A stretch of 40,327 nucleotides of DNA, from assembly GCA_050050035.1 (NCBI GenBank), contig JASFVB010000002.1:1-40327 (forward strand). Direction: 5' to 3'. Shown piece after piece: positions 19,653 through 36,038 of the stretch. Made by a program: the position numbers and the translations under genes. The notes below the pieces were generated by a model that saw nothing but the letters and a program-made list of their open reading frames with translations, ran no database searches and was not told the origin of the DNA. This stretch comes from Acidimicrobiia bacterium (lineage in GTDB: Bacteria; Actinomycetota; Acidimicrobiia; Spongiisociales; ZC4RG35). The number at the start of each line of letters is the position of its first letter. The stretch's first letter is position 1.

Positions 19653-21704
19653 CTAAGAGTCTTCCTTGGCAGCGGCTGCGATGACAGCCTGAGCCTCATT
19701 GTGAGGGACTTCCTCGTAGTGGTCGAATTCCATCTCAAAGGTGCCGCGACCGGAGGTGAACGACCTCAGCTCTGCCGCGTACTGTTGCATCTCAGCCATG
19801 GGCACCTCGGCGTTGACAGTCCTCAGAGTGCCCTCACCCTCCATGCCGAGGACCTTCCCCCGTTTCGAGTTGATGTCACCCATGACGTCTCCGAGATAGG
19901 CCTCGGGCACCGTCACTGCAATCTTCATGATGGGCTCCAGCAAGACGGGTCTCAGCCGATCCCCGGCGGTCCTGACCGCCTGGATCCCGGCCATTCGGAA
20001 CGACATCTCGTCGGAGTCCACGGCGTGGTACTTGCCGTCGTACAATTCGGCGGCGACGTCGACCACCGGGTACCCGGCGAGTATCCCCCTGTCCAATGCC
20101 TCCTGGATGCCCTTGTCGACGGCCGGTATGAGACCACGAGGGATGGCTCCACCTTTGACCGAGTCGATGAACTCGTAGCCCGTACCTCTCGGGCGTGGTG
20201 AGAACCTGACGAGGGCCACTCCGAACTGTCCACGGCCCCCCGACTGCTTCTTGTGCTTGCCCTCGGCCTCGGCGGTCGCCATCACCGACTCCCGGTAGGG
20301 GATCTTCGGGATGGTCGAGTCGATCTCGACCCCGAACATGCGCTTGATACGAGCCAGTGTGACGTCGAGATGGGTATCACCCATCCCGGAGAGGATCGTC
20401 TCCCCGGTCTCGGGGCGCCGCTCGACCTTGATGGTCGGGTCGCTCTCCGCCATGCGGCGGAGGGCAGTCGACATCTTCTCGTCGTCGTGATGCGAGTGCG
20501 GTGCGATCGCCAGCTCGGTCACCGGTCGGGGGAACTCCACGGGGTCGATGACGGCAGTGAGCCCGGGCGAGCGCAACGTGTCGCCTGGGTGGAGGTCCTC
20601 GACCTTGGCGACGGCCCCGATTCCGCCCACCGGGAGCTCGGAGACGTCGTCGTGCTCCTTTCCCTGGAGCTTGAAGAGGTTGTGCATCCGGACCTTGCCG
20701 CCACGGGCCAACTCGAGCTCTTGGTCGGCCTTGGCCGTGCCCGAGTAGATGCGGAACAACGAGATACGCCCGACGAAGGGGTCAGAGACCGTCTTGAAGA
20801 CATAGGCGAGGACGGGACCGTCCGCCGAGGGCTCGATGGGGTCGCCCTCGGCCAGGGGCGGCAGGCTCCGCTCGAGAGGGTTCGGGCCGTAGTCGAGGAT
20901 GAACTCGAACAGGGTGTCGATCCCCACGAGTTTCTCGGACGAGGTGACCATGACGGGATAGATGTCGCCGGCGACGATGCCGTTGTGGATCGTGTCGACG
21001 ATCTGATCCCGGGTCGGCTCGGTGCCTTCGAAGTAGGCCTCCATCATCTCGTCGTCTGTCTCGACGACGGTCTCAATCAGTGCGGTGTGAGCTTCGTGGA
21101 CGAGAGGGGCGACGTCGTCCGGCAAATCGGCTTGAGTCCCCTTGGCTGAACCGCCCGAGTAGATGTAGGCCCTCTCACTTGCCACCCGCACCAAGCCGCT
21201 GAGGGAGGTCTCCGATCCGATCGGCACCTGGATCGGTGCGATCGACTTGCCGAAGCTCTCTCTGAGCTGCTGGATCACACGTTGATACGACGCTCGCTCG
21301 CGGTCCAGCTTCGTGATGACGATGGCCCGGGGGATGCCCTCCTCCTCGGCGGCCCGCCAGAGGACCTCCGTCTGCACCTCGACACCGTCGACGGCGGAGA
21401 CGGCGAACAGGGCCAGGTCGGCCGCGCGCAAGGCCGTGTGGGCATCGCCGCTGAACTCGGTTGCACCCGGTGAGTCGATGATGTTGACGCGAGTGCCATT
21501 CCACTCGGTCGTCGCTACGGCCAGGCCGAGGGAGATCGTGCGGTCGATCTCCTCGGGCTCGTAGTCGAAAGTGGTGGTCCCGTTCTCGACCGACCCCATG
21601 CGCTTGATCGCCCCGCCTGCATACAGCAAGGCCTCCGCCAGCGTTGTCTTCCCGCTTCCGCTGTGACCGACCAGCGCGATGTTTCGGACCTTCTCGGGGA
21701 TCAC
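19653..21704 (-). CDS. Elongation factor G paralogue (EF-G2-like translational GTPase)
   Basis: Full five-domain EF-G layout with G1 GHSGSGKTT, G3 DSPGA (not DTPGH) and G4 TKLD. GTG start with an AGGAGG RBS upstream. Confidence 0.9.
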   Translation of the reverse strand: MIPEKVRNIALVGHSGSGKTTLAEALLYAGGAIKRMGSVENGTTTFDYEPEEIDRTISLGLAVATTEWNGTRVNIIDSPGATEFSGDAHTALRAADLALFAVSAVDGVEVQTEVLWRAAEEEGIPRAIVITKLDRERASYQRVIQQLRESFGKSIAPIQVPIGSETSLSGLVRVASERAYIYSGGSAKGTQADLPDDVAPLVHEAHTALIETVVETDDEMMEAYFEGTEPTRDQIVDTIHNGIVAGDIYPVMVTSSEKLVGIDTLFEFILDYGPNPLERSLPPLAEGDPIEPSADGPVLAYVFKTVSDPFVGRISLFRIYSGTAKADQELELARGGKVRMHNLFKLQGKEHDDVSELPVGGIGAVAKVEDLHPGDTLRSPGLTAVIDPVEFPRPVTELAIAPHSHHDDEKMSTALRRMAESDPTIKVERRPETGETILSGMGDTHLDVTLARIKRMFGVEIDSTIPKIPYRESVMATAEAEGKHKKQSGGRGQFGVALVRFSPRPRGTGYEFIDSVKGGAIPRGLIPAVDKGIQEALDRGILAGYPVVDVAAELYDGKYHAVDSDEMSFRMAGIQAVRTAGDRLRPVLLEPIMKIAVTVPEAYLGDVMGDINSKRGKVLGMEGEGTLRTVNAEVPMAEMQQYAAELRSFTSGRGTFEMEFDHYEEVPHNEAQAVIAAAAKEDS

Positions 21705-27141: not shown

Positions 27142-28203
27142 CTACTCGACGACCCGGGTGCCGAACACCGCTTCTGAGTGCTCGTCGATCCATCGATCGA
27201 CTGCTTCCCACTGTGCCCACAACCAATCGGCTTCGGCGCGGCGATCGTGGCTGGTCGGTGGTGGCGGTGTCCAATAGGCGGCTTGGACGGTGCGTCTGAT
27301 CGGCACCCGGGCCCAGAGATCACGCAGTGAGAAGATGTCGTCGAGCCCAACATGAGCCACGAAGACCACGCTGGCGTGCGGAGCGGCATCCAAGGCGGCA
27401 AGGGTGCCGGCGGTCCTCGGTGGGAGGACATGTGTCATACGTCTCGCAGTGTCGGCACGGTCGACCTGGCCCCGAGCCTCCAACCTCTTCAGGGCCTCCG
27501 TCCTGCGTCTCGGTGTGAAGTTGCCGCCCTCCGGGAAGATGATCAACGCCCCGTCGGCTTCGATGGTCGCCGCCGAATGGCTCACCTCGTCCAACTCTCG
27601 CTGAGGATCGGGAGGATTCTGTTCGCAGAAGTGGAAAGGGAGACGACGGACCACGTGGTTGAAGAAGGGATCCCAGAGGAGCTTGGTCGTGCCGAGCATG
27701 CGCACCCGTCGCTTGTGGACCCTGATCAGCGAGTGCGCAACGAGTAGGGCATCGCCGGGCCCCGCATGACGGCTGAACACGAGAACGGGGCCTTCGGGCA
27801 GATTCTGATGGGGAAACTCGAAGTCGAACCCGATGAAGGTGCGGATCGCGGCCGTGATCATCTCGAGCCAGACGCCGAACACCCAGTGGTGGAGACGTTG
27901 GATCGGCCCGGACCTCATCCACAGCCCGAACCCGGACGCGACCCAGAGAACGAAGGCCATGAGGAGGCCAAACGTCTCCACGACGCAGAACGCGATGCCA
28001 AGCCCCACGATGCGGGTGAATCGCCAGTTCCTCCGGTCGAGGAGGTCGATGATGGCGAGAACGAGATGGAGGACAGGCGAGAGGATCGTCACGACCAGAG
28101 CACCGACGAAGGTGATCGGTGTGACGACCAAGGCCCGAACTGCGGGTGGAGGGACCCTCACATACACGTTGCCGAGGCTACGCGGCGCGGGTTGTGCGAT
28201 CAT
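27142..28203 (-). CDS. Membrane-anchored lysophospholipid (PlsC/AGPAT-like) acyltransferase
   Basis: N-terminal TM helices, then SRHAGPGD (HxxxxD block) and IFPEGGNFT (block III). ATG 28203 was chosen; the 502-aa track ORF extends antisense into the SRPBCC gene. Confidence 0.75.
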   Translation of the reverse strand: MIAQPAPRSLGNVYVRVPPPAVRALVVTPITFVGALVVTILSPVLHLVLAIIDLLDRRNWRFTRIVGLGIAFCVVETFGLLMAFVLWVASGFGLWMRSGPIQRLHHWVFGVWLEMITAAIRTFIGFDFEFPHQNLPEGPVLVFSRHAGPGDALLVAHSLIRVHKRRVRMLGTTKLLWDPFFNHVVRRLPFHFCEQNPPDPQRELDEVSHSAATIEADGALIIFPEGGNFTPRRRTEALKRLEARGQVDRADTARRMTHVLPPRTAGTLAALDAAPHASVVFVAHVGLDDIFSLRDLWARVPIRRTVQAAYWTPPPPTSHDRRAEADWLWAQWEAVDRWIDEHSEAVFGTRVVE

Positions 28204-28209
28204 CCCGGA

Positions 28210-28659
28210 ATGACCTATCCCGTCAGACCGGTGACCGTCACCGCCCGAGTCGAGGCGGACCCCGACGAGGTGTTCGCCTTCGTGTCGGATACCAGGAACG
28301 ACCCCGTCTGGTGCCCAAACGTGACCGACGTCTCCCAAACCGAGGGGAGCGGTGTGTCCCTTGGGTCGCGGTTTCGGTTCCATCAATCGGTGGAGACGGG
28401 CGGCAGGACGCTCGTCTCGGATGTCGACGTGGAGGTCGTGGAACTCGCAGAGAGATCGATCGTGTGGCGGGTCGAGGACCGTTTCCAGATTCGGGAGATC
28501 AGGCTGTCGGTGGCCGATGAGGACGAGGCTTCGCTGGTCACACAGACCACGAAGGCAGCGTTCAAACGCAAGCCGGGTTTGACCCGGTGGGTTTACCCGA
28601 TGATGGCGAAGCGGGTGTTTCGCGACCAGCTGAACCGGCTGGCCGAGCATTTCGGCTAG
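28210..28659 (+). CDS. SRPBCC (START/polyketide-cyclase-like) ligand-binding protein
   Basis: From MTYPVRPVTVTARVEADPDEVFAFVSDTRNDPVWCP the translation shows the typical SRPBCC N-terminal pattern at about 149 aa. The ATG lies 6 nt from the divergent acyltransferase ATG. Confidence 0.7.
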   Translation: MTYPVRPVTVTARVEADPDEVFAFVSDTRNDPVWCPNVTDVSQTEGSGVSLGSRFRFHQSVETGGRTLVSDVDVEVVELAERSIVWRVEDRFQIREIRLSVADEDEASLVTQTTKAAFKRKPGLTRWVYPMMAKRVFRDQLNRLAEHFG

Positions 28660-28975: not shown

Positions 28976-29008
28976 GAAACGCCGGTTCGAATCCGGTCGG
29001 GACTGCCA
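28976..29008 (+). other. Orphan tRNA-like 3' half: T-arm, acceptor 3' strand, discriminator and encoded CCA, with no detectable 5' half
   Basis: GCCGG (28981-85) / TTCGAAT / CCGGT (28993-97), then CGGGACT (28998-29004), G, and CCA (29006-08). No AGTCCCG-type partner, D-arm or anticodon arm was found at tRNA distance upstream. Confidence 0.5.
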
Positions 29009-29107
29009 CCTCGTTCGCAGGCGGCCCGTGCGCATAGTGCTCCCCGGTGGGACATGTGTGGCTGGCGAAGAATCGGCGGTGCTTTGTCAACTTCGGCTTG
29101 GGCCGCT

Positions 29108-29869
29108 TCAGCCCTCGTCAAGCTTGTCGCCCATCAACGCACCCTCCTGTGAATGGGGTCCGCGAACAGGGTCCATCTCGCCGCCACAGACGAGGTTGTT
29201 CGCATCCGGGATGGACAGGCTCAATGCGGTAGGGCGGTCCTCACATGCGACGCCGCGGGTTTCGATCCAGGTGGCCAGACGGGGATCGGGTCGACCTGCC
29301 AGCATCTCGAACGCCCGAAGCCTTCGAACGGCGACTCTGCCCAATGCCGGTGGCAACGGGAGCCCGGAGACACCCTGCTGTATGACCAGCGCGATGCCCT
29401 CGACCGCCCGCTCATTCCAAGGGACCTCCTTACTCCGCCACGCGGTGTAGCCGTTCTCTTCCATGAACCGCTCCCGAAGCTCCTCGCTCACATTCGCCCT
29501 CTCCCATGCATGCGCCAGCTCGTGCTCGAACACCACGTCCACATCATCGGAGCAGATAGCGATCTGCCACGGCATCTGGTCGGTTCTGAACAAGCCTCTC
29601 GCACCTCCGCATGACTCCCTGTTCGGGTGGAATACAACCTCGAGGTCGGGCAATCTCAACCCGACGCTGACGTAGCGGCCGACAGGGGTCGCAAGACGTT
29701 CTTCCTGAGATGGTGTGGCGTCGACGAAGGTGAACACCGGCGTCAGCGATCCCGCGGACCCCGCCTCGTGGGCGACGACAGAATCGGCTGTGGTGAGTGT
29801 CCCCGTTCCAAGCACGAATAGGCCAGTGGCGATAGCCAGGATGGTGATGCGAGCAGACATGTCCCGCAC
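29108..29869 (-). CDS. Secreted putative zinc metallopeptidase (HExxH)
   Basis: Signal-peptide-like N-terminus (ARITILAIATGLFVLGTGTLTTA) and a single HELAH motif within VVFEHELAHAWE. The start is GTG 29869 or ATG 29860. The family was not recognised beyond the motif. Confidence 0.7.
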   Translation of the reverse strand: MRDMSARITILAIATGLFVLGTGTLTTADSVVAHEAGSAGSLTPVFTFVDATPSQEERLATPVGRYVSVGLRLPDLEVVFHPNRESCGGARGLFRTDQMPWQIAICSDDVDVVFEHELAHAWERANVSEELRERFMEENGYTAWRSKEVPWNERAVEGIALVIQQGVSGLPLPPALGRVAVRRLRAFEMLAGRPDPRLATWIETRGVACEDRPTALSLSIPDANNLVCGGEMDPVRGPHSQEGALMGDKLDEG

Positions 29870-29886
29870 CGTCCGGGACAGGCCTC

Positions 29887-29926
29887 AATCGGCGGCGAAA
29901 TCGGATTAATCGGCGATTAATCGGGC
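29887..29926. promoter_or_regulatory. AT-rich direct-repeat array (4 x AATCGG, the last two forming an 11-bp tandem ATTAATCGG-NN) in the divergent promoter region
   Basis: AATCGG occurs at 29887, 29899, 29908 and 29919. ATTAATCGGCG (29905-15) and ATTAATCGGGC (29916-26) are a tandem pair. The array lies 17 nt from each flanking GTG start codon. Confidence 0.4.
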
Positions 29927-29943
29927 CCGGATACACCAGCACC

Positions 29944-32900
29944 GTGACTCAGAGCAGCGAGGCCAAGACACAAGCCGTTAGGTTCCCGACGCACGAATCG
30001 GAGGAACCCTTGAGATTGGGCTTGCTCGGGCCACTCTCGGTGGCTCGCAACGGGTCGGAACTCGACGTGAGCGGCCCAAAACGTCGTGCGCTGCTGATAC
30101 TCCTCGCGATCAACGCCGGCGAGCCGGTCAGTGTCGATCGGATCGTCGAGTCTCTGTGGCCTGCCGAGCGCACCGGACGCGAGGAGTCCACGTTGCGCGT
30201 CCACGTCTCTCATGTGCGCGATGCGCTGGAGCCTGGTCGGGACGGGAGCCCGCGGGTCCTACTCACCCAGGGTTCTGCATACGTGCTCTCGCCCGATGAG
30301 GTGGAGGTCGACGCTCTTCGTTTTCTCGAGCTCACTGCGCGGGCCCGCGGTGAGCTCGAGTCACGGCCCGAGACTGCACTCGAACTGCTCAACGAAGCCT
30401 TGACCCTGTGGCGGGGGAGAGCTCTCCAGGACGTCGAATACGAGGAGTTCGCCCAGGAGGAGATACGCCGACTGGAGCAGGCGAGGAGCGAGGCCATCGA
30501 AGATCGGGCCCAAGCCCTAATCGAGCTCAACGAAGACTCTTCTGCCATCGAGGACCTCGAGTCACTAGTTCGTACCGACCCGACGAACGAGCGACCGGTG
30601 CAGCTCCTGATGAGGGCCCTCTACAGGACTGGGCGGCACAGCGAGGCGTTGCGAGTGAGTCGGCGGCATCGTCGCCATCTCGCCGAGCTCGGCCTCGAGC
30701 CTTCACCACGACTCACCCATCTGGAGGACCAGATTCTCCAGCACGATCCCGCTCTCCTCCCGGACGGCGCAATCGGGCCCGCCGATGTCAGACCGGGGCG
30801 CTCGATACGCGGATATGAGCTGAGGGAGGAAGCCGGCAGTGGCTCGGTGGGCGTGGTCTACAGAGCGTTCCAGCCCGCCGTAGGCCGTGACGTCGCGGTC
30901 AAGGTGATCGACCCACTCCTCGCCCAAACCCCGGACTTCGTGAGACGGTTTGCCGAGGAGGCGAGGATCATCGCCAGCCTCGAGCATCCGCACATCGTGC
31001 CGCTCCACGACTTCTGGCGGGAGCCCGGTGGGGCGTTTCTGGTCATGCGTTGGATGGACGGGGGAAGTCTCGGCGATCGACTGAGTCAACCATGGGCTCC
31101 GGACGCGATAGCGCGAGTGTTCGGCCAGCTGACCGCAGGTTTGGGCTATGCCCACGAGTCGGGGGTGATCCACCGAGACGTCAAGCCCTCGAACGTCCTG
31201 TTCGACTCGACCGGCAACGCCTACCTCTGTGATTTCGGTCTCGCGGTCACGCGTCTCGGCAGTGGAGCGGCCGATGGCCGACATCCAACTATCGAGCCTC
31301 CGTATGCCTCACCTGAAGTGCTGCGTGGAGAGGGCCCGTCGGTCGCCTCAGACATATTCGGACTCGGGGTGATGCTGGCCGAGGCGGCAGCCAGCAACGG
31401 CTATGAAGGCAGTAGCACCGCCATCGAAGGAGCGCTGGGAGAGGTGATCCGGGTGGCCACCTCACCGAACCCTGGTGACAGGTATCCCGACATGGATGCG
31501 TTTGGCGCAGCGATCCGCGACGCTCTGGGCTCGACCGTCGCTCCCGCTCCCCGCCGGTTGCGTCGTAATCCATTCAAAGGCCTCGAGGCCTTTGAGGAGG
31601 GTGATCAGGCCGACTTCTACGGTCGGGACGACGTGATCGAGAGCCTGGTCGGATCGGTCGCTGGTCACGGGCTCACGGCGGTTGTTGGCGCCTCCGGAAG
31701 CGGCAAGTCGTCAGTGGTCATGGCGGGTCTCGTGCCCGAGCTGCGCAAGGGTGCGCTCCCAGGCTCGGACGAGTGGTTCATCGTGAGAATGGTGCCGGGG
31801 GTGGATCCGTTCGACGAGTTTCACATCGGGCTTCGCAGCGCTGCCGTGGGTCGTGGGCAGACATCATCCACCGAGCGATCCCGTGAGCTGCGTGATGGGT
31901 TCATAGCTGCCCTCGATGGACCAAACTCCAGAGCGCTTCTCGTCGTCGACCAGTTCGAGGAGCTCTTCTCCAGCGCCGTCGACGGCGATGTCCGAGGACG
32001 CTTCATCGAAAACCTGGTCGACTTGGCGACAGACCCGGCACATCGGGTGAGGATCATCGTGACGTTGCGAGCCGACTTCTCGGATCGACCGCTGGCACAC
32101 CCCCGGCTGGGTGACCTCATGTCCAAGGCATCCGTTCTCCTGGCGCCGATGCGGCCCGAGCAGGTAGAGGAGGTCGTCCGCAAACCGGCAGCCAGGGTCG
32201 GCGTCCAGGTCGAGCCGGGTCTCGTCGCCGAGATCACTCGCGATGTCACCACCTCGCCGGCCTACCTCCCGCTCCTCCAGTACGTGTTGTCGGAGCTGTT
32301 CGAGCGGAGAACCGAGGACCGGTTGACGGTGAGCGCTTATCGATCGCTCGGAGGTGTCCAGGGTGTTCTCGAACGTCGCGCCGAGGCCACCTATTCATCG
32401 CTCGATCGAGGAGCTCAGCTGGCGTCCCGGCAACTGTTCCTCCGAATGGTGCACCTTGGCGAGAGCGGAGAAGAGACCAGGCGGCGATTGCCGCTGACGG
32501 AGCTCCATGGGCTGGCCGGGCGCGCTGATGCCGACGGGGCGCTGAGGGCGTTCTCCGATGCGAGGCTGCTCACATACGACCGGGACCCGGTGACCCGGAC
32601 GCCCACTGTCGAAGTGGCGCACGAGACGGTTATCGGCCGCTGGGCTCGTTATCGGATCTGGATCGACGAGGCGCGTGCAGATCTGCTGTCCCACCGCCGG
32701 ATTGCGGCAGCAGCGAGGACCTGGGAGGAGTCTGGGGAAGACCCCTCTTATCTGCTGACAGGTGGGCCATTGACCACCGCGCTCGAAGTGGTCGCCGGGG
32801 AACACATCCATCTCAACGACCAGGAGTCGAGATTCGTCCAGGAGAGCCGGTGGGCTGACGACGAGAGGAGCCAGGCCGAAGAGGAGCGCCGGCTGCATGA

Positions 32901-35166
32901 GCGGGAGGTCGAGGCACGTTCCCGACGTCGGTTGATCATCGGTATCGGATCTGCGGTCGTTGCAGTGGCAATCGGTGTTCTGGCCGTCTTCGCCTTTCTT
33001 CAGCGCCAGCGTGTCAACGATCTCGCCGAGGCACAGGAACGGCAAAACACGGCTCGGGAGTTGGCGGCGGCAGCCATTACCAATCTCGACTCGGCCGATC
33101 CGGATCTGAGTCTGCTTCTCGCCATCGAGGCCGCCGAGCAGAGCATCGAGGCTGGCGAGGATGTCCTTCCCGAGGTGGTCGACGCACTTCATCGCTCGCT
33201 CGTCAATCCCCGTCCGGATTTGATCATCGAGGGGGCCGGCAGCGACCTGGGTGGACAGGTCATCTCTTACTCACCAGGGGGCACTCACCTGGCCATGGTC
33301 ACCGGGGACGGAGGTGCCGTCGTCGTTGAACCCGAGACCGGGGAGGTCCTCGGTGAGGTGCCACCCATCGAAACCCCGGCGTGGGGTGTCGATTTCCACT
33401 TCGACCGAACTCGAATCCTGACGGTACATGACGACGGTGTGCGTCTCTGGGACTGGCGGACCGGTGAGATGACACTCGAGGCCAAGTCTGAGACTCAAGT
33501 AACTGCAGGCCTTCTCTCCCGGGACGGGAACCTCATCGCCATGGGGCACGATGACGGCTCCATGCGGGTGGTGCGCTCGGGCTCCGGTGAGCTCGTGAGT
33601 GAGTTTCAGGCACACGAGGGACGGGTAACGACCATCGACTTCAGCCCAAGCGGACAGAGGCTCGTCTCGGGTGGGACAGACACCAAGACCGCAGTCTGGG
33701 ACGTGACGACCGGCGAGTCGGTGACCATCGCCAACACTCCCACGATCATCCTCTCGATCGGTCACGTTGCCTGGATCCCGTTTGGGGAGCTTGCGGTGGC
33801 GACAACCACCCAAGGAGAGACGTTCCTGTTCGACACTCTCACCGGGGAGCGTCTCAACTCGTTCGGCAATGGTCAGAACTTCAACAATTCTGTTGCCTTC
33901 AACAGCTCGGGAAGCCTGCTGATCGCCGCCGGCGGCGATGGTGTCGCCCGACTCTACGGGTCACTGGTCGGAGGTGAAGTCGCCGGCGAGCTGCCCACCG
34001 GAGGGGTCCCCCTCCGAGATGCCGAATTCGCGCCCGGCAGCTTCGCCACCGTTGCCACCGCCGCGGTTGACGGCAAGGTGCGCATCTGGAAGGACATCCT
34101 GCAATCGGAGCTACCAATACGAATTACACCCACGCTCTATCCGACCATGGCCATCACCGATGACATGAGCCGGTATGCAATAAACGCGAATGCCCTCCAT
34201 CTGGAGTTCCCCGCCGACTTTCCGTCGACGATCGACGTCATCGACTCAGGGACGGGAGATGTCGTCCTCAGCAGACCCACCTGGAGGGGCTGGTACACGT
34301 TGGGTGAGCCGGCCTTGACCGGAGACGGACGGTTGGTTGCCTTTGCCGGGCCGACGGGGGAGATCGAGATCGTTCAAGTGGATACGGGATCGTCCGTGAC
34401 CATTCCTGAGTCGAGCTCGTACACCGTCGACCTCGCCTTCAGCTCCGATGGGATGATGCTTGCCGGTGCCTCACTGATCGGTGAGATCGGTATCTGGTCC
34501 ACCTCGACCGGAGAGATTGTGACGAAGCTCGAAGGACACGGTGATAGGGCGGCGGCCAATGCAAGCGCACCGACCCAGCGCGACCGAAGTGCGCCAACAT
34601 TGTTCGCGCCGCAAAGAGTCAGCGAAGTGGTCTGGCACGAAGGAGGCGAACGACTCGTTTCGGCCGGTTTCGACGGCACCGTCCGCACCTGGGACCTTTC
34701 AACCGGCGCGAACACCGTGCTGGCTGAGTTCGACTATGAGCTCTATGCGGTCGCTCTCACTCCCGACGGCGAGCATGTCGTGGCGATGGATCGAAGCGGC
34801 GCCGTCGGAGTGATCGATCCGGCTGGCGGGGGCATTGTGAGGGAGCTCGAAGACATCTCCAGCGGTGGGCGCATCAGCTTCTCTCCGGATGGTCGCTATC
34901 TGGCCGGCGCCGGTCGTGCTGGAACCTTCCTCTGGGACTTCGAATCCGGACGTGTGATCAGAGAGTTCCAAGGAGCCGTATACCCGCCGAGCGACATCGA
35001 GTTCATCGAGGATGGAAGCAAGATCCTGGTGGCGTCGGGGGAGGGGATCATCAGGAGCTACCTCCTGGATCCCTTGGATATGGTGATGCTCGCCCGGTCC
35101 GAGGTATCCCGAGGGTTGACCGACGACGAGTGTCAGCTCTATCTGGAACGCTCTTGCGGAGGCTGA
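29944..35166 (+). CDS. 1740-aa multidomain signalling protein: SARP (wHTH + BTAD), Hanks Ser/Thr kinase, STAND P-loop NTPase, TM helix and about 14 WD40-like blades
   Basis: wHTH is at aa 22-115 (nt 30007-30288) and BTAD at aa 120-268 (30301-30747). The kinase is at aa 289-530 (30808-31533) with GSGSVGVV, VAVK, HRDVKPSN, DFG and SPE. The NTPase is at aa 541-900 (31564-32643) with NPFKGLEAF..FYGR, Walker A GASGSGKSS (31687-31713) and Walker B LLVVDQFEE. The hydrophobic helix is at aa 996-1019 (32929-33000). Blade-like repeats span aa ~1095-1705 (33226-35058). An alternative TTG start lies at 30010. Confidence 0.9.
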   Translation: MTQSSEAKTQAVRFPTHESEEPLRLGLLGPLSVARNGSELDVSGPKRRALLILLAINAGEPVSVDRIVESLWPAERTGREESTLRVHVSHVRDALEPGRDGSPRVLLTQGSAYVLSPDEVEVDALRFLELTARARGELESRPETALELLNEALTLWRGRALQDVEYEEFAQEEIRRLEQARSEAIEDRAQALIELNEDSSAIEDLESLVRTDPTNERPVQLLMRALYRTGRHSEALRVSRRHRRHLAELGLEPSPRLTHLEDQILQHDPALLPDGAIGPADVRPGRSIRGYELREEAGSGSVGVVYRAFQPAVGRDVAVKVIDPLLAQTPDFVRRFAEEARIIASLEHPHIVPLHDFWREPGGAFLVMRWMDGGSLGDRLSQPWAPDAIARVFGQLTAGLGYAHESGVIHRDVKPSNVLFDSTGNAYLCDFGLAVTRLGSGAADGRHPTIEPPYASPEVLRGEGPSVASDIFGLGVMLAEAAASNGYEGSSTAIEGALGEVIRVATSPNPGDRYPDMDAFGAAIRDALGSTVAPAPRRLRRNPFKGLEAFEEGDQADFYGRDDVIESLVGSVAGHGLTAVVGASGSGKSSVVMAGLVPELRKGALPGSDEWFIVRMVPGVDPFDEFHIGLRSAAVGRGQTSSTERSRELRDGFIAALDGPNSRALLVVDQFEELFSSAVDGDVRGRFIENLVDLATDPAHRVRIIVTLRADFSDRPLAHPRLGDLMSKASVLLAPMRPEQVEEVVRKPAARVGVQVEPGLVAEITRDVTTSPAYLPLLQYVLSELFERRTEDRLTVSAYRSLGGVQGVLERRAEATYSSLDRGAQLASRQLFLRMVHLGESGEETRRRLPLTELHGLAGRADADGALRAFSDARLLTYDRDPVTRTPTVEVAHETVIGRWARYRIWIDEARADLLSHRRIAAAARTWEESGEDPSYLLTGGPLTTALEVVAGEHIHLNDQESRFVQESRWADDERSQAEEERRLHEREVEARSRRRLIIGIGSAVVAVAIGVLAVFAFLQRQRVNDLAEAQERQNTARELAAAAITNLDSADPDLSLLLAIEAAEQSIEAGEDVLPEVVDALHRSLVNPRPDLIIEGAGSDLGGQVISYSPGGTHLAMVTGDGGAVVVEPETGEVLGEVPPIETPAWGVDFHFDRTRILTVHDDGVRLWDWRTGEMTLEAKSETQVTAGLLSRDGNLIAMGHDDGSMRVVRSGSGELVSEFQAHEGRVTTIDFSPSGQRLVSGGTDTKTAVWDVTTGESVTIANTPTIILSIGHVAWIPFGELAVATTTQGETFLFDTLTGERLNSFGNGQNFNNSVAFNSSGSLLIAAGGDGVARLYGSLVGGEVAGELPTGGVPLRDAEFAPGSFATVATAAVDGKVRIWKDILQSELPIRITPTLYPTMAITDDMSRYAINANALHLEFPADFPSTIDVIDSGTGDVVLSRPTWRGWYTLGEPALTGDGRLVAFAGPTGEIEIVQVDTGSSVTIPESSSYTVDLAFSSDGMMLAGASLIGEIGIWSTSTGEIVTKLEGHGDRAAANASAPTQRDRSAPTLFAPQRVSEVVWHEGGERLVSAGFDGTVRTWDLSTGANTVLAEFDYELYAVALTPDGEHVVAMDRSGAVGVIDPAGGGIVRELEDISSGGRISFSPDGRYLAGAGRAGTFLWDFESGRVIREFQGAVYPPSDIEFIEDGSKILVASGEGIIRSYLLDPLDMVMLARSEVSRGLTDDECQLYLERSCGG

Positions 35167-35549
35167 GGGGTTGGCTGCGCGGGCCTAACGGATCGGCTGC
35201 GAACTCTATCGGATTGGAGCTTCGAGGACGATCCCTGAGACCGGCTTCTGCCACAGTCTCGTGTCGCCGTAGGTGAGGGTCACAACTGATGTGTCCGCGG
35301 GAGCGGGCCCACAACTGAGAGTGCCAGGAATCGAGCCGAAGGCGTTGAGATTGCAGGTAGCTCTGGGCCCGCCGGATCGGCGAGCGAACCCTTGAGCTGT
35401 GCTGGGTCCCTTCTTCGTCTACGACTTGGCCCTCGGTGACGTAGTGGAGACGAGGATCGCCAAGGATCGAGAGTATGTGATCGGTCTGACGCGTACAGGC
35501 TTGTCCGTCGAATGCCTTCGCAGGGTCCGCCCTATCGATTACCGTCATA

Positions 35550-35561
35550 GAACATATGTTC
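35550..35561. promoter_or_regulatory. SOS (LexA) box-like perfect palindrome GAAC-ATAT-GTTC overlapping the ruvC start codon
   Basis: The context reads TAGAACATATGTTCGT, and the ATG at 35556-58 is the ruvC start. It matches the Gram-positive/actinobacterial GAAC-N4-GTTC LexA consensus. Confidence 0.6.
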
Positions 35562-36038
35562 GTCCTGGGGATCGATCCCGGCTTGTCGATCACCGGCTAT
35601 GGCCTGGTGGTGGGTGGTCACCCGCCGCGTGGGATTCGGGCCGGGGTAATACGCACCGACAAGGATGACACGACCTCTTCCCGGCTCGCCGAGCTGCACG
35701 CCGGCCTCGTGGAGGTGATCGGAGACGCGTCGCCGGACGCGATCGCGATCGAGACGGTATTCACCAACCGCAACCTGCAGACGGCGATGTCGGTGGGTCG
35801 GGCTTCGGGCGTCGCCCTGCTGGCCGCGGCACAGGCCGGAGTACCCGTGTTCGAATATGTGCCGACAGCCGTGAAAGCCGCGGTGACCGGGGACGGGTCG
35901 GCTAACAAGAAGCAGGTGCAGACGATGGTCGCCAGACTGCTCGGGCTCGCCGAGGCGCCGAAACCGGCCGATTCCGCCGACGCGTTGGCCCTGGCCCTCT
36001 GTCATCTCCGCGCCGCGCCACTCGAGGCCAGCCGATGA
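35556..36038 (+). CDS. ruvC: Crossover junction endodeoxyribonuclease RuvC
   Basis: MFVLGIDPGLSITGYGLV N-terminus, AIETVF, and ADSADALALALCH at the C-terminus. Confidence 0.9.
   Translation: MFVLGIDPGLSITGYGLVVGGHPPRGIRAGVIRTDKDDTTSSRLAELHAGLVEVIGDASPDAIAIETVFTNRNLQTAMSVGRASGVALLAAAQAGVPVFEYVPTAVKAAVTGDGSANKKQVQTMVARLLGLAEAPKPADSADALALALCHLRAAPLEASR

What the first reader, a model, noticed from the sequence alone, without database searches (positions are those of the whole stretch)
29944..35166. Giant single-polypeptide fusion: SARP DNA-binding module + active-looking Ser/Thr kinase + STAND NTPase + TM helix + two WD40-like propellers
The module order can be read directly from the translation. 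A winged helix (LRLGLLGPLSV ... LWP ... LRVHVSHVR) is followed by BTAD (LWRGRAL ... LMRALYRTGRHSEAL). Next is a Hanks kinase with every catalytic signature intact (GSGSVGVV, VAVK, HRDVKPSN, DFG, SPE). Then comes a STAND-type P-loop NTPase with the NPFKGL-x-F ... FYGR lead-in, Walker A GASGSGKSS and Walker B LLVVDQFEE. A 24-residue hydrophobic helix follows, then about 14 blade-like repeats (7 + 7). In Streptomyces, AfsR (SARP + NB-ARC-type NTPase + TPR) is phosphorylated in trans by AfsK, a kinase with a C-terminal beta-propeller. This ORF looks like both partners fused in cis, a Rosetta-stone type fusion. Its NTPase lead-in motif is, to my recollection, typical of WD40-linked STAND proteins from conflict/defence-like loci, not of SARP regulators. 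I do not know of a characterised protein with this module order. It would link ligand sensing (propellers), nucleotide-dependent oligomerisation, phosphorylation and promoter binding in one chain.
Basis: partly seen in the sequence, partly recalled or inferred. Interest (0 to 1): 0.85.

Follow-up and report, generated by a model that had tools for sequence, protein, structure and literature searches.

The report
Membrane-spanning SARP–kinase–STAND–WD40 giant regulator
This is a real, conserved 1,740-residue actinobacterial protein that appears to join an outside-facing double-propeller sensor, through one membrane helix, to an ATP switch, a protein kinase and a DNA-binding activator that probably turns on its own gene; the family is common in sequence databases, but I found no study of it.

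Summary
ORF 29944-35166 (+) is uninterrupted, and profiles support every module: Trans_reg_C, BTAD, Pkinase, nSTAND1 (PF20703, 377 bits), one TM helix and a tandem WD40 double propeller (AF2 pLDDT 91; best PDB matches are double propellers, including Apaf-1).

The fusion is not a chimera. At least 112 full-length relatives (34-80% identity) share it, with conserved junctions, kinase catalytic residues and Walker motifs. These come from Acidimicrobiia MAGs and from Nitriliruptor and Jiangella isolates.

New points:
1. The TM helix is conserved (110/112) and obeys the positive-inside rule (108/111), so the propellers are probably extracytoplasmic.
2. A tandem 11-bp repeat (GATTAATCGGC|GATTAATCGGG, 29904-29925) sits 6 nt upstream of a −10-like hexamer. 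It is footprint-conserved in ten loci, which is SARP-box geometry and suggests autoregulation.
3. A divergent gene for a secreted HExxH protein of an orphan family is a conserved neighbour.
4. Kinase–nSTAND1–TM–WD40 without SARP is equally common among the nearest relatives.

The AfsR+AfsK reading holds only as an analogy, because the NTPase is nSTAND1 rather than NB-ARC and there is no TPR. The context is housekeeping, not defence or a BGC. I found no functional description. Verdict: a new variant of known kinds.

The parts
29944..35166 (+). Giant ORF of 1740 codons from GTG. An alternative start is TTG 30010, giving 1718 aa.
   Evidence: P0001 = 1718 aa gene call.
29904..29925 (+). Tandem 11-bp direct repeat GATTAATCGGC|GATTAATCGGG, the candidate SARP box. 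Each GATTAATC core is palindromic. Extra AATCGG copies lie at 29887-29892 and 29899-29904.
   Evidence: unique in the window, 0.04 expected by chance; invariant TTAA-N7-TTAA in 10 loci.
29932..29937 (+). -10-like hexamer TACACC, 6 nt after the repeat. Relatives have TAGCCT, TAACCT, TACTCC or TATTCC.
   Evidence: T, A and C are invariant columns. The geometry matches the SARP rule given in PMC10936776. No -35 consensus was found.
29999..30012 (+). GGAGGAA Shine-Dalgarno sequence followed by TTG 30010, the alternative start used by the database gene call.
30076..30285 (+). OmpR-type winged-helix DNA-binding domain (Trans_reg_C), aa 45-114.
   Evidence: The closest solved relatives are AfsR 8hvr and EmbR 2fez.
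30307..30738 (+). BTAD domain, aa 122-265. Together with the winged helix it forms the SARP module.
30814..31521 (+). Hanks-type Ser/Thr kinase domain, aa 291-526, with all catalytic signatures.
31570..32745 (+). nSTAND1 NTPase (PF20703), aa 543-934. Walker A is GASGSGKSS (aa 582-590) and Walker B is LLVVDQFEE (aa 665-673). Family conservation continues to about aa 990.
   Evidence: No solved relative was found by sequence.
32932..33000 (+). Single transmembrane helix, aa 997-1019, preceded by an RSRRRL cluster.
   Evidence: present in 110/112; 142/150 representatives; positive-inside rule in 108/111.
33001..33213 (+). Conserved three-helix linker after the TM helix, aa 1020-1090 (ARELAAA...DPDLSLLLAIEA).
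33220..35064 (+). Tandem WD40 double propeller, aa 1093-1707, about 14 blades. It is the most variable region of the family.
35071..35163 (+). C-terminal helical cap carrying two invariant cysteines (aa 1730 and 1738; motif LT..EC..YL...C).
29108..29860 (-). Divergently transcribed partner gene of 250 aa. Its product has a signal-peptide-like N-terminus, an invariant HExxH motif and two invariant cysteines. It belongs to an orphan family.
   Evidence: (adjacent in 7 distinct related loci).

Best explanation
The gene encodes a membrane-anchored signal transducer and transcription activator in a single chain.

**Shown by sequence and profile analysis.**
- The N-terminal ~1000 residues are a SARP DNA-binding and activation module, a catalytically intact Hanks kinase and an nSTAND1 P-loop NTPase.
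- A single conserved TM helix follows.
- The C-terminal ~720 residues are a helical linker plus a tandem WD40 double propeller.

**Inferred.**
1. Topology is N-in, C-out, so the propellers sense an extracytoplasmic or cell-envelope ligand.
2. Ligand binding is relayed through the TM helix, most simply by clustering or re-orienting receptor chains. Clustering would allow nucleotide-dependent oligomerisation of the nSTAND1 modules.
3. Oligomerisation brings the kinase domains together for trans-autophosphorylation and for phosphorylation of the NTPase or SARP parts. This is the reaction AfsK performs on AfsR and PknH performs on EmbR in trans.
4. The side-by-side SARP domains then bind the tandem 11-bp repeats that replace a -35 element in front of the gene itself. 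They recruit RNA polymerase while the protein stays at the membrane, as ToxR and CadC do. The result is positive autoregulation.
5. The repeat units are palindromic and lie in a shared divergent intergenic region. The neighbouring gene for a secreted HExxH (zincin-like) protein is therefore a probable co-regulated target.

The system looks like a stand-alone envelope or environment sensor. It does not look like an antiphage system or an antibiotic-cluster regulator.
For: **Modules and catalytic residues:**

**The fusion is conserved.** It is found in at least 112 full-length relatives from several actinobacterial classes, with conserved junctions.

**Topology.**
- The TM helix is present at the same alignment position in 110/112 family members and in 142/150 nearest representatives.
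- K+R averages 5.95 on the N-flank and 3.05 on the C-flank, with N>C in 108/111.
- Kinase-TM-periplasmic WD40 is a recognised bacterial topology (PMC11032199).

**Ectodomain.** It is a confident double propeller and the least conserved region, as expected of a sensor.

**Cis-element.**
- A tandem 11-bp repeat lies 6-7 nt from a TAnnCn hexamer. TTAA-N7-TTAA and the hexamer's T, A and C are invariant in 10 loci, while the flanking DNA has diverged.
- The 11-bp offset is specific. Ten of 28 SARP-bearing loci score >=9/10 at offset 11, and none do at offsets 8-10 or 12-14. Shuffles average 0.17 loci. One of 26 non-SARP relatives scores >=9/10.
- The box is unique in the window. In 93 loci it occurs only upstream of this gene, apart from one stray hit.
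- The geometry matches the published SARP rule: repeats 11 bp apart, 3' repeat about 8 bp from the -10, and no good -35 (PMC10936776; no sigma-70 consensus).

**SARP module.** Its closest solved relatives are AfsR and EmbR, both matched end to end.

**Partner gene.** It is adjacent and divergent in 7 distinct related loci. HExxH is invariant.

**Context.** The surroundings are housekeeping genes: pdxST and yebC upstream, ruvCAB, queA and tgt downstream.
Against: - Nothing here is biochemical. Topology, DNA binding and kinase activity are all predictions.
- The strong repeat statistics come mostly from one clade of about 10 related loci, which are not independent. Among 18 more distant SARP-bearing loci only 4 reach >=8/10 at offset 11, against about 1 expected.
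- The repeat core is palindromic, which is unusual for SARP sites. It could instead be the operator of an unrelated dimeric regulator.
- A STAND sensor separated from its NTPase by a membrane cannot autoinhibit it by direct packing, as it does in Apaf-1, MalT or AfsR. The coupling step is therefore speculative.
- A DNA-binding domain held at the membrane by a chain of about 1000 residues may need proteolytic release, which I cannot assess.
- The partner is conserved only in the Acidimicrobiia clade. The Nitriliruptor neighbour also has HExxH, but homology is not demonstrable (hhalign probability 4.8%).
- The partner's fold has no significant PDB match (best E 0.11).
Confidence: 0.55

Rival explanations
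1. It is an nSTAND1 conflict or antiphage system. The propellers recognise an invader-derived molecule, the NTPase oligomerises, and the kinase is the effector, with the SARP module inducing further defence genes.
For: - nSTAND1 was defined in predicted counter-invader systems whose N-terminal effectors include S/T/Y kinases (PMC8195603).
- DGR-diversified nSTAND1 sensors exist (PMC10907252).
- WD40 'Apaf-1-like' sensors occur in defence-associated STAND clades (PMC13581612).
- The kinase matches PADLOC kinase models PD-T4-6 and mad6.
- The propellers are the most variable region.
- Some genomes carry paralogs.
Against: - The PADLOC hits are generic kinase similarity. The NTPase and sensor half (aa 540-1740) matches no defence STAND model.
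- The neighbourhood is core housekeeping in the window and unremarkable in Nitriliruptor and Jiangella.
- The sensor is predicted to lie outside the cytoplasm, where intracellular phage proteins are not found.
- The output module is a transcription activator with its own conserved autoregulatory box, not a toxic effector.
Confidence: 0.12
2. It is a protease-gated regulator. The protein is an inactive membrane-tethered precursor, and signalling works by cleavage that releases the soluble SARP, with or without the kinase, to act on DNA. The cleaving enzyme could be the co-conserved secreted HExxH partner acting on the ectodomain, followed by intramembrane proteolysis.
For: - The divergent HExxH secreted protein is a conserved neighbour in 7 distinct loci.
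- A trypsin-like secreted protease sits in the same position in a distant locus (L089).
- Membrane tethering of a 1000-residue cytoplasmic part makes release attractive.
- Weak fold similarity of the partner to zincins: YbeY, SprT and astacin.
Against: - No cleavage site or intramembrane protease is identified.
- ToxR- and CadC-type regulators work while tethered.
- The partner's fold match is not significant (E > 0.1), and the partner is absent outside one clade.
- Neighbours in other clades are heterogeneous.
Confidence: 0.15
3. The SARP module is an evolutionary passenger. The working unit is the kinase-nSTAND1-TM-WD40 receptor kinase, which signals by phosphorylating other proteins. The upstream repeat is the operator of an unrelated palindrome-binding regulator.
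For: - Kinase-nSTAND1-TM-WD40 without SARP is the commonest architecture among the nearest representatives (62 of 150).
- SARP presence is interleaved on an nSTAND1 tree, with at least 18 changes.
- The repeat cores are palindromes.
Against: - The SARP module is as conserved as the other domains and is matched end to end to AfsR and EmbR.
- 11-bp-period repeats are found upstream of SARP-bearing relatives and not of SARP-less ones (10/28 against 1/26).
- Non-palindromic 11-bp repeats occur in distant SARP-bearing loci, L092 and L061.
- Some apparent SARP-less representatives may be N-terminally truncated metagenomic gene calls.
Confidence: 0.13
4. It is an assembly or annotation artefact: two or more genes joined by a mis-assembly or a missed frameshift.
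For: Only the unusual length and module count. The window is a metagenome-type contig (the longest_contig value equals the window length).
Against: - The same end-to-end architecture occurs in at least 112 independent clusters, including the isolate genomes of Nitriliruptor alkaliphilus and Jiangella aurantiaca.
- The junctions are conserved and nearly gap-free.
- Composition is uniform along the ORF, and the window has no Ns.
Confidence: 0.01

Closest known systems
AfsR (Streptomyces 'large SARP') with its kinase AfsK
   Same: - The N-terminal SARP module is homologous (E 2e-28 to AfsR structures, full domain).
- In both, a STAND-type NTPase follows the SARP.
- Both link a SARP to a Ser/Thr kinase.
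- Target sites are two 11-bp direct repeats overlapping the -35 position. The AfsR repeat is CGTT(T/C)ATCGNN (PMC10972967) and the repeat here is CGATTAATCGG.
- In AfsR the NOD and TPR domains autoinhibit the SARP, ATP relieves the inhibition, and phosphorylation by AfsK alters ATPase activity and oligomerisation (PMC10936776).
   Different: - The NTPase is nSTAND1, not NB-ARC.
- There are no TPR repeats.
- The kinase is in cis, inserted between BTAD and the NTPase.
- A TM helix and an outside-facing WD40 double propeller replace the cytosolic TPR sensor.
- The AfsR equivalog model is far below its cut-off (114 against 1430 bits).
- The gene is not in a BGC or afsK/afsS context.
EmbR with PknH (Mycobacterium tuberculosis)
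   Same: The SARP module is homologous (2fez, E 1e-26). The SARP is controlled by a transmembrane Hanks receptor kinase that has an extracellular sensor.
   Different: EmbR docks to the kinase through an FHA domain and is a separate protein. It has no NTPase and no propeller.
Receptor Ser/Thr kinases with extracytoplasmic beta-propellers (PknD of M. tuberculosis; kinase-TM-WD40 proteins of Planctomycetota, PMC11032199)
   Same: A cytoplasmic Hanks kinase, a single TM helix and an outside beta-propeller sensor. The SARP-less relatives of this protein are this kind of protein with an NTPase added.
   Different: Here a ~450-residue STAND NTPase lies between the kinase and the membrane, and a transcription factor is fused at the N-terminus.
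nSTAND1 conflict-system NTPases (Kaur et al. 2021, PMC8195603) and Apaf-1-type STAND-WD40 sensors
   Same: - Full-length membership of PF20703.
- The order is N-terminal output, central NTPase, C-terminal repeat sensor.
- The double propeller structurally resembles that of Apaf-1.
   Different: - The sensor is separated from the NTPase by a membrane.
- The output is a kinase plus a transcription activator, not a death or effector domain.
- There is no effector-associated domain.
- There is no defence neighbourhood.
ToxR/CadC/TcpP-type membrane-bound one-component activators
   Same: An N-terminal OmpR-type winged helix in the cytoplasm, one TM helix and an outside sensor domain, with transcription activated from the membrane.
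   Different: Those proteins are small (about 300-500 aa) and have no BTAD, kinase or NTPase. The resemblance is topological and rests on my own knowledge. It was not tested here.
PknK (M. tuberculosis) and MalT/LAL regulators
   Same: A kinase, or a DNA-binding domain, fused to a STAND-type ATPase that acts as a ligand-gated switch.
   Different: They are cytosolic, belong to a different NTPase clade, have TPR or SUPR sensors, and carry a LuxR-type HTH at the C-terminus. This comparison rests on my own knowledge and was not tested here.

Membership tests
SARP family (OmpR-type wHTH + BTAD) | A Trans_reg_C winged helix followed by BTAD, both above the Pfam gathering scores | tested here: met
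   38.1 bits (cut-off 26.2) and 122.4 bits (cut-off 22.1); end-to-end match to the AfsR and EmbR SARP domains.
SARP family (OmpR-type wHTH + BTAD) | Target promoters carry direct repeats 11 or 22 bp apart, with the 3' repeat about 8 bp from the -10 element (PMC10936776) | tested here: met
   This was met computationally only. The repeats are at 29904-29925, the core TTAATCG ends at 29923 and the -10-like hexamer starts at 29932. Binding was not tested.
AfsR-type large SARP (SARP + NB-ARC + TPR) | Central NB-ARC-clade NOD | tested here: not met
   the NTPase is nSTAND1 (PF20703), and no NB-ARC model is among the 25 best Pfam hits listed; the AfsR equivalog aligns only to aa 16-274 (114 bits against a cut-off of 1430).
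AfsR-type large SARP (SARP + NB-ARC + TPR) | C-terminal TPR sensor | tested here: not met
   the C-terminus is a WD40 double propeller, and no TPR model is among the 25 best Pfam hits listed.
Hanks-type Ser/Thr protein kinase (active) | Pkinase profile plus G-loop, VAxK Lys, alpha-C Glu, HRD Asp, Asn, DFG and APE | tested here: met
   (140 bits); all motifs are present in the query and conserved in 103-112 of 112 relatives. Enzymatic activity cannot be tested with these tools.
nSTAND1 (PF20703) STAND NTPase | Full-length profile match with intact Walker A and Walker B | tested here: met
   377 bits, profile positions 1-378 of 379. GKSS and DQFEE are invariant.
nSTAND1 conflict or defence systems | N-terminal effector or effector-associated domain, and a defence or conflict gene neighbourhood | tested here: not met
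   no PADLOC STAND model matches aa 540-1740; housekeeping or unrelated neighbours. Only the generic kinase matches PADLOC.
Apaf-1-like STAND with WD40 double-propeller sensor | Tandem beta-propellers C-terminal to the NOD | tested here: met
   Apaf-1 3shf gives TMq 0.49 and E 3e-34; 2ymu gives E 1e-40.
Apaf-1-like STAND with WD40 double-propeller sensor | Sensor in the same compartment as the NOD, contacting it directly (AP-ATPase clade) | tested here: not met
   a conserved TM helix lies between the NOD and the propellers. The NOD is nSTAND1, not AP-ATPase.
Transmembrane receptor kinase (kinase-TM-extracytoplasmic sensor) | Single TM helix C-terminal to the kinase, N-in and C-out | tested here: inconclusive
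   Hydropathy and the positive-inside rule support it. No dedicated topology predictor or experiment was available.

The most novel reading that the evidence does not exclude
This family, together with its SARP-less kinase-nSTAND1-TM-WD40 sisters, may define a class of transmembrane NLR-like receptors. An extracytoplasmic Apaf-1-like double propeller would control a cytoplasmic STAND NTPase across a single membrane helix, without any direct contact between sensor and NOD. The signal would then pass through a cis-linked kinase straight to a membrane-tethered SARP that activates its own promoter and a neighbouring secreted-protein gene. Surface-receptor logic, NLR logic, Ser/Thr phosphorylation and transcription would all sit in one polypeptide that is widespread in Actinomycetota.
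Probability: 0.4. Interest if true: 0.8.

Novelty: new variant of a known kind. Interest (0 to 1): 0.6.

Why it matters
- **SARP classes.** Reviews and a 2026 phylogenomic survey recognise only small SARPs, NB-ARC or NB-ARC/TPR SARPs and SARP-LALs. This adds a fifth class that is membrane-spanning and carries its own kinase, and it occurs well outside Streptomyces.
- **STAND mechanism.** It raises a question for STAND/NLR biology: how is an NTPase switch controlled when its repeat sensor lies on the other side of a membrane?
- **Evidence from the fusion.** The cis-fusion is independent, Rosetta-stone-type support for the long-debated functional coupling of Ser/Thr kinases to SARP regulators (AfsK/AfsR, PknH/EmbR).
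- **Testability.** The conserved 22-bp box gives an immediately testable DNA target. Two cultured species, Nitriliruptor alkaliphilus and Jiangella aurantiaca, carry the same architecture.
- **Limits.** The family is already abundant and auto-annotated in databases, so the novelty lies in recognising and interpreting it. No new fold or chemistry is involved.

Tried and rejected
- **PADLOC, whole protein and aa 540-1740.** Only generic kinase similarity was found and no defence STAND model matched, so I dropped assignment to a known defence system.
- **Sigma-70 promoter scan of 29000-35700.** No consensus promoter was found. This fits an activator-dependent promoter but is uninformative on its own. 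Neither of the two terminator-like hits lies downstream of the ORF end, so none follows the gene.
- **Rfam and tRNA scans of the window.** Nothing was found.
- **Single-protein scan of genome contigs.** It found only 9 close loci, all unnamed MAGs, so the taxonomic range rests on the source names.
- **Partner protein.** Pfam found nothing. Foldseek against the PDB gave no significant hit (best E 0.11, zincin-like), so 'metallopeptidase' remains an inference from the invariant HExxH. hhalign of the partner family against the Nitriliruptor neighbour gave probability 4.8%, so homology is not established.
- **Supplements of PMC13581612.** None are held, so I could not see how that STAND phylogeny classifies this clade.
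- **NJ tree of nSTAND1 domains.** SARP presence is interleaved, with at least 18 changes. Resolution is low and truncated metagenomic gene calls are a risk, so I draw no conclusion on gain versus loss.
- **Divergent neighbours in distant loci.** They are mostly secreted or envelope proteins but heterogeneous, which is suggestive only.
- **Assembly chimera.** Considered and rejected.
- **BGC regulator.** Considered and rejected: the genes annotated across the window include no recognisable biosynthetic cluster.


Full report
**1. Observation.**
The window has a single uninterrupted ORF at 29944-35166 (+), 1740 codons from a GTG.
- Trans_reg_C, aa 45-114: 38 bits.
- BTAD, aa 122-265: 122 bits.
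- Pkinase, aa 291-483: 140 bits. NCBIfam extends the kinase match to aa 526.
- nSTAND1 (PF20703), aa 543-934: 377 bits over essentially the whole profile.
- WD40 and beta-propeller models from about aa 1107.

The database gene call for this contig is 1718 aa. It starts at TTG 30010, which is preceded by GGAGGAA. The start is therefore ambiguous by 22 codons.

**2. The fusion is real and conserved.**
A search of 5.8 billion proteins returned more than 112 full-length cluster representatives (1650 aa or longer). They range from 80% down to about 34% identity and mostly cover 98-99% of the query. All 120 listed hits carry Pkinase and nSTAND1, and nearly all also carry BTAD, Trans_reg_C and WD40. 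They come from many Acidimicrobiia MAGs and from the isolate genomes of Nitriliruptor alkaliphilus and Jiangella aurantiaca. NCBI names them 'BTAD domain-containing putative transcriptional regulator'.

In a MAFFT alignment of 112 of them, the kinase catalytic residues are kept in 103-112 sequences and the Walker A and B motifs are invariant. GC and GC3 are flat along the ORF, and the window has no Ns. An assembly chimera or frameshift is effectively excluded.

**3. A membrane passes through the protein.**
The hydrophobic segment at aa 997-1019 is the only TM-like segment. It is present at the same alignment position in 110 of 112 relatives, with variable sequence but conserved hydrophobicity. 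It is also present in 142 of the 150 nearest 50%-identity representatives of the NTPase module. Arg and Lys are enriched on its N-terminal side (5.95 against 3.05 in 15 residues, with N>C in 108 of 111).

The N-terminal part binds DNA and ATP, so it must be cytoplasmic. The C-terminal 720 residues are therefore predicted to be extracytoplasmic.

The AF2 model of this part is confident (pLDDT 91.2, pTM 0.86). It has a three-helix linker, 55 strands (about 14 blades) and a helical cap. Foldseek ranks tandem double propellers first: Nostoc 2ymu (E 1e-40), Apaf-1 (TMq 0.49) and Aip1 'two seven-bladed propellers'.

The whole protein has only three cysteines. Two of them (aa 1730 and 1738) are invariant and lie in the outside C-terminal cap. 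The propellers are the least conserved region. Kinase-TM-periplasmic WD40 is a known bacterial topology (PMC11032199).

**4. A conserved SARP-box-like element in front of the gene.**
The 148-bp region between the divergent neighbour (ATG at 29860, minus strand) and TTG 30010 contains GATTAATCGGC|GATTAATCGGG at 29904-29925. This is followed 6 nt later by TACACC at 29932-37.

Relatives at 52-66% identity have the same arrangement, for example:
- L001: CGATTAATCGC|CGATTAACCGC, then TAGCCT.
- Nitriliruptor: GCCGGTTAACT|GCCGGTTAACG, then TACTCC.

In an alignment of ten upstream regions, TTAA-N7-TTAA and the T, A and C of the hexamer are invariant while the surrounding DNA has diverged.

Quantitatively, 10 of 28 SARP-bearing loci have a tandem self-match of at least 9/10 at offset 11. 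None do at offsets 8, 9, 10, 12, 13 or 14. Shuffles give a mean of 0.17 loci, and SARP-less relatives give 1 of 26. The box is unique in the 40-kb window, with 0.04 expected by chance. In all 93 fetched loci it occurs only upstream of this gene, apart from one stray hit.

This is the published SARP promoter geometry: direct repeats 11 or 22 bp apart, the 3' repeat about 8 bp from the -10, and a poor -35 (PMC10936776). No sigma-70 consensus was found here. The AfsR repeat, CGTT(T/C)ATCGNN (PMC10972967), also looks similar. I treat that similarity as a lead, not a test.

Two caveats apply.
- Nine of the ten high-scoring loci belong to one clade. In the 18 more distant SARP-bearing loci only four reach 8/10 or better. 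These include a perfect CGGTGTCGCCG x2 in L092 and a triple TCACnCGC in L061.
- The GATTAATC core is palindromic, which is unusual for SARP sites.

**5. Neighbours.**
The window is core-genome territory. The gene order is thrS, citrate synthase, an EF-G-like gene, pgsA, a GT4 glycosyltransferase, pdxS, pdxT and yebC; then an acyltransferase/SRPBCC region, the divergent 250-aa gene and the giant gene; then ruvC, ruvA, ruvB, queA and tgt. There is no defence island and no BGC.

The divergent gene product has a signal-peptide-like N-terminus, an invariant HExxH and two invariant cysteines. It belongs to an orphan family of 68 clusters, all 'hypothetical'. It is adjacent and divergent in 7 distinct related Acidimicrobiia loci. 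Its AF2 model is confident (pLDDT 87), but it has no significant PDB neighbour. The weak top hits are zincin-type hydrolases.

The Nitriliruptor neighbour also has HExxH, but homology cannot be shown. In more distant loci the divergent neighbour is often a secreted or envelope protein, but the proteins are heterogeneous: a trypsin-like protease, a Vgb-lyase-type propeller and an FtsX-like permease.

**6. Place in the nSTAND1 family.**
The NTPase module alone finds 47,727 representatives at 50% clustering, of which 16,650 have E <= 1e-30. Among the nearest 150:
- 62 are kinase-nSTAND1-TM-propeller.
- 56 are SARP-kinase-nSTAND1, with or without the TM helix and propeller.
- 7 have SARP without a kinase.

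On an NJ tree of the NTPase domain, the SARP-bearing and SARP-less proteins are interleaved (low resolution, and some sequences may be truncated). So the chassis is a kinase-nSTAND1-TM-WD40 receptor, and the SARP is a frequent and labile N-terminal module. nSTAND1 was defined in predicted conflict systems (PMC8195603). However, the NTPase and sensor half matches no PADLOC STAND model.

**7. Mechanism (inferred).**
- Outside propellers bind a ligand.
- The signal crosses by TM-helix-mediated clustering or re-orientation.
- The nSTAND1 modules oligomerise on nucleotide binding.
- The kinases trans-phosphorylate the NTPase or SARP parts.
- Paired SARP domains bind the 22-bp box and recruit RNA polymerase from the membrane.
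- The result is positive autoregulation and probably expression of the divergent secreted HExxH protein.

Only the module identities, their conservation, the predicted topology and the conserved cis-element are shown. Every coupling step is inference by analogy with AfsR/AfsK (PMC10936776), EmbR/PknH and ToxR-type regulators.

**8. Comparison and novelty.**
The SARP module is a true SARP, with AfsR and EmbR as its closest solved relatives. The protein fails two defining features of AfsR-type large SARPs, NB-ARC and TPR. The nSTAND1 module has no solved relative by sequence.

SARP reviews and a September 2026 survey list only small SARPs, medium (NB-ARC) SARPs, large (NB-ARC+TPR) SARPs and SARP-LALs. 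Full-text searches found no description of this architecture.

It is therefore an undescribed but abundant variant that combines known kinds. I score interest at 0.6. The parts and the fusion logic are familiar, but the membrane-split STAND and the self-contained path from sensor to promoter are unusual and directly testable.

Noticed in passing
window 27142-28659: Two long ORFs overlap on opposite strands, and both have Pfam hits. The minus-strand ORF 27142-28650 has an Acyltransferase domain (aa 281-381). The plus-strand ORF 27766-28659 has Polyketide_cyc2/SRPBCC (aa 156-296). The domains map to non-overlapping DNA, so the real genes are probably shorter than the ORFs.
   Followed up: no
window 15891-40000; L003 1-10000: The giant gene, its partner and the acyltransferase/SRPBCC region interrupt the conserved actinobacterial block thrS...pgsA-GT4-pdxS-pdxT-yebC | ruvC-ruvA-ruvB. 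In Nitriliruptor the gene pair sits at the thrS end of the same block, so it is in the same neighbourhood at a different insertion point.
   Followed up: partly
L007 and L010 (both from MAG SMAG_U1779): One genome carries two paralogs of the giant gene. Both have the TTAA-type 11-bp tandem box upstream, but only L010 has the HExxH partner. Upstream of L007 there is a MetE-like gene on the same strand.
   Followed up: partly
L092 about 2896-2917; L061 about 1186-1218: Distant SARP-bearing relatives have different, non-palindromic 11-bp-period repeats upstream: CGGTGTCGCCG x2 (perfect) in L092, and CGCTCACACGC|CGATCACGCGC|GAGTCACGCGA in L061. This hints that box and SARP specificity co-evolve.
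   Followed up: partly
window 29862-29903: Upstream of the main box there are two further AATCGG copies in the window (29887-92 and 29899-904). In relatives there is a semi-conserved GTGAA...AAA about 11 and 22 bp upstream. These may be additional half-units for a higher-order SARP oligomer, or the divergent gene's promoter.
   Followed up: no
window 35131-35157 (aa 1730 and 1738): The 1740-aa protein has only three cysteines. Two are invariant across the family and lie 8 residues apart in the predicted extracytoplasmic C-terminal cap (LT..EC..YL...C). They could form a disulfide or bind a metal.
   Followed up: no
family alignment, columns of query aa 410-414: About 8-10 of the 112 full-length relatives have a degenerate catalytic loop (HRD changed to HGN or similar, and the catalytic-loop Lys changed). 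They are probably pseudokinase members of the family.
   Followed up: no
window 32554-32559 (aa 871-872 in 1718-aa numbering; VEVAHE): An invariant His-Glu lies in the C-terminal part of the NTPase module. It may correspond to the MHD/'HD' activation switch described for AfsR and plant NLRs, and is a candidate site for autoactive mutants.
   Followed up: no
window 19653-21704 (minus strand): An EF-G-like GTPase of 683 aa with all five EF-G domains lies next to citrate synthase, away from any ribosomal-protein or str operon context. It may be an EF-G paralog.
   Followed up: no
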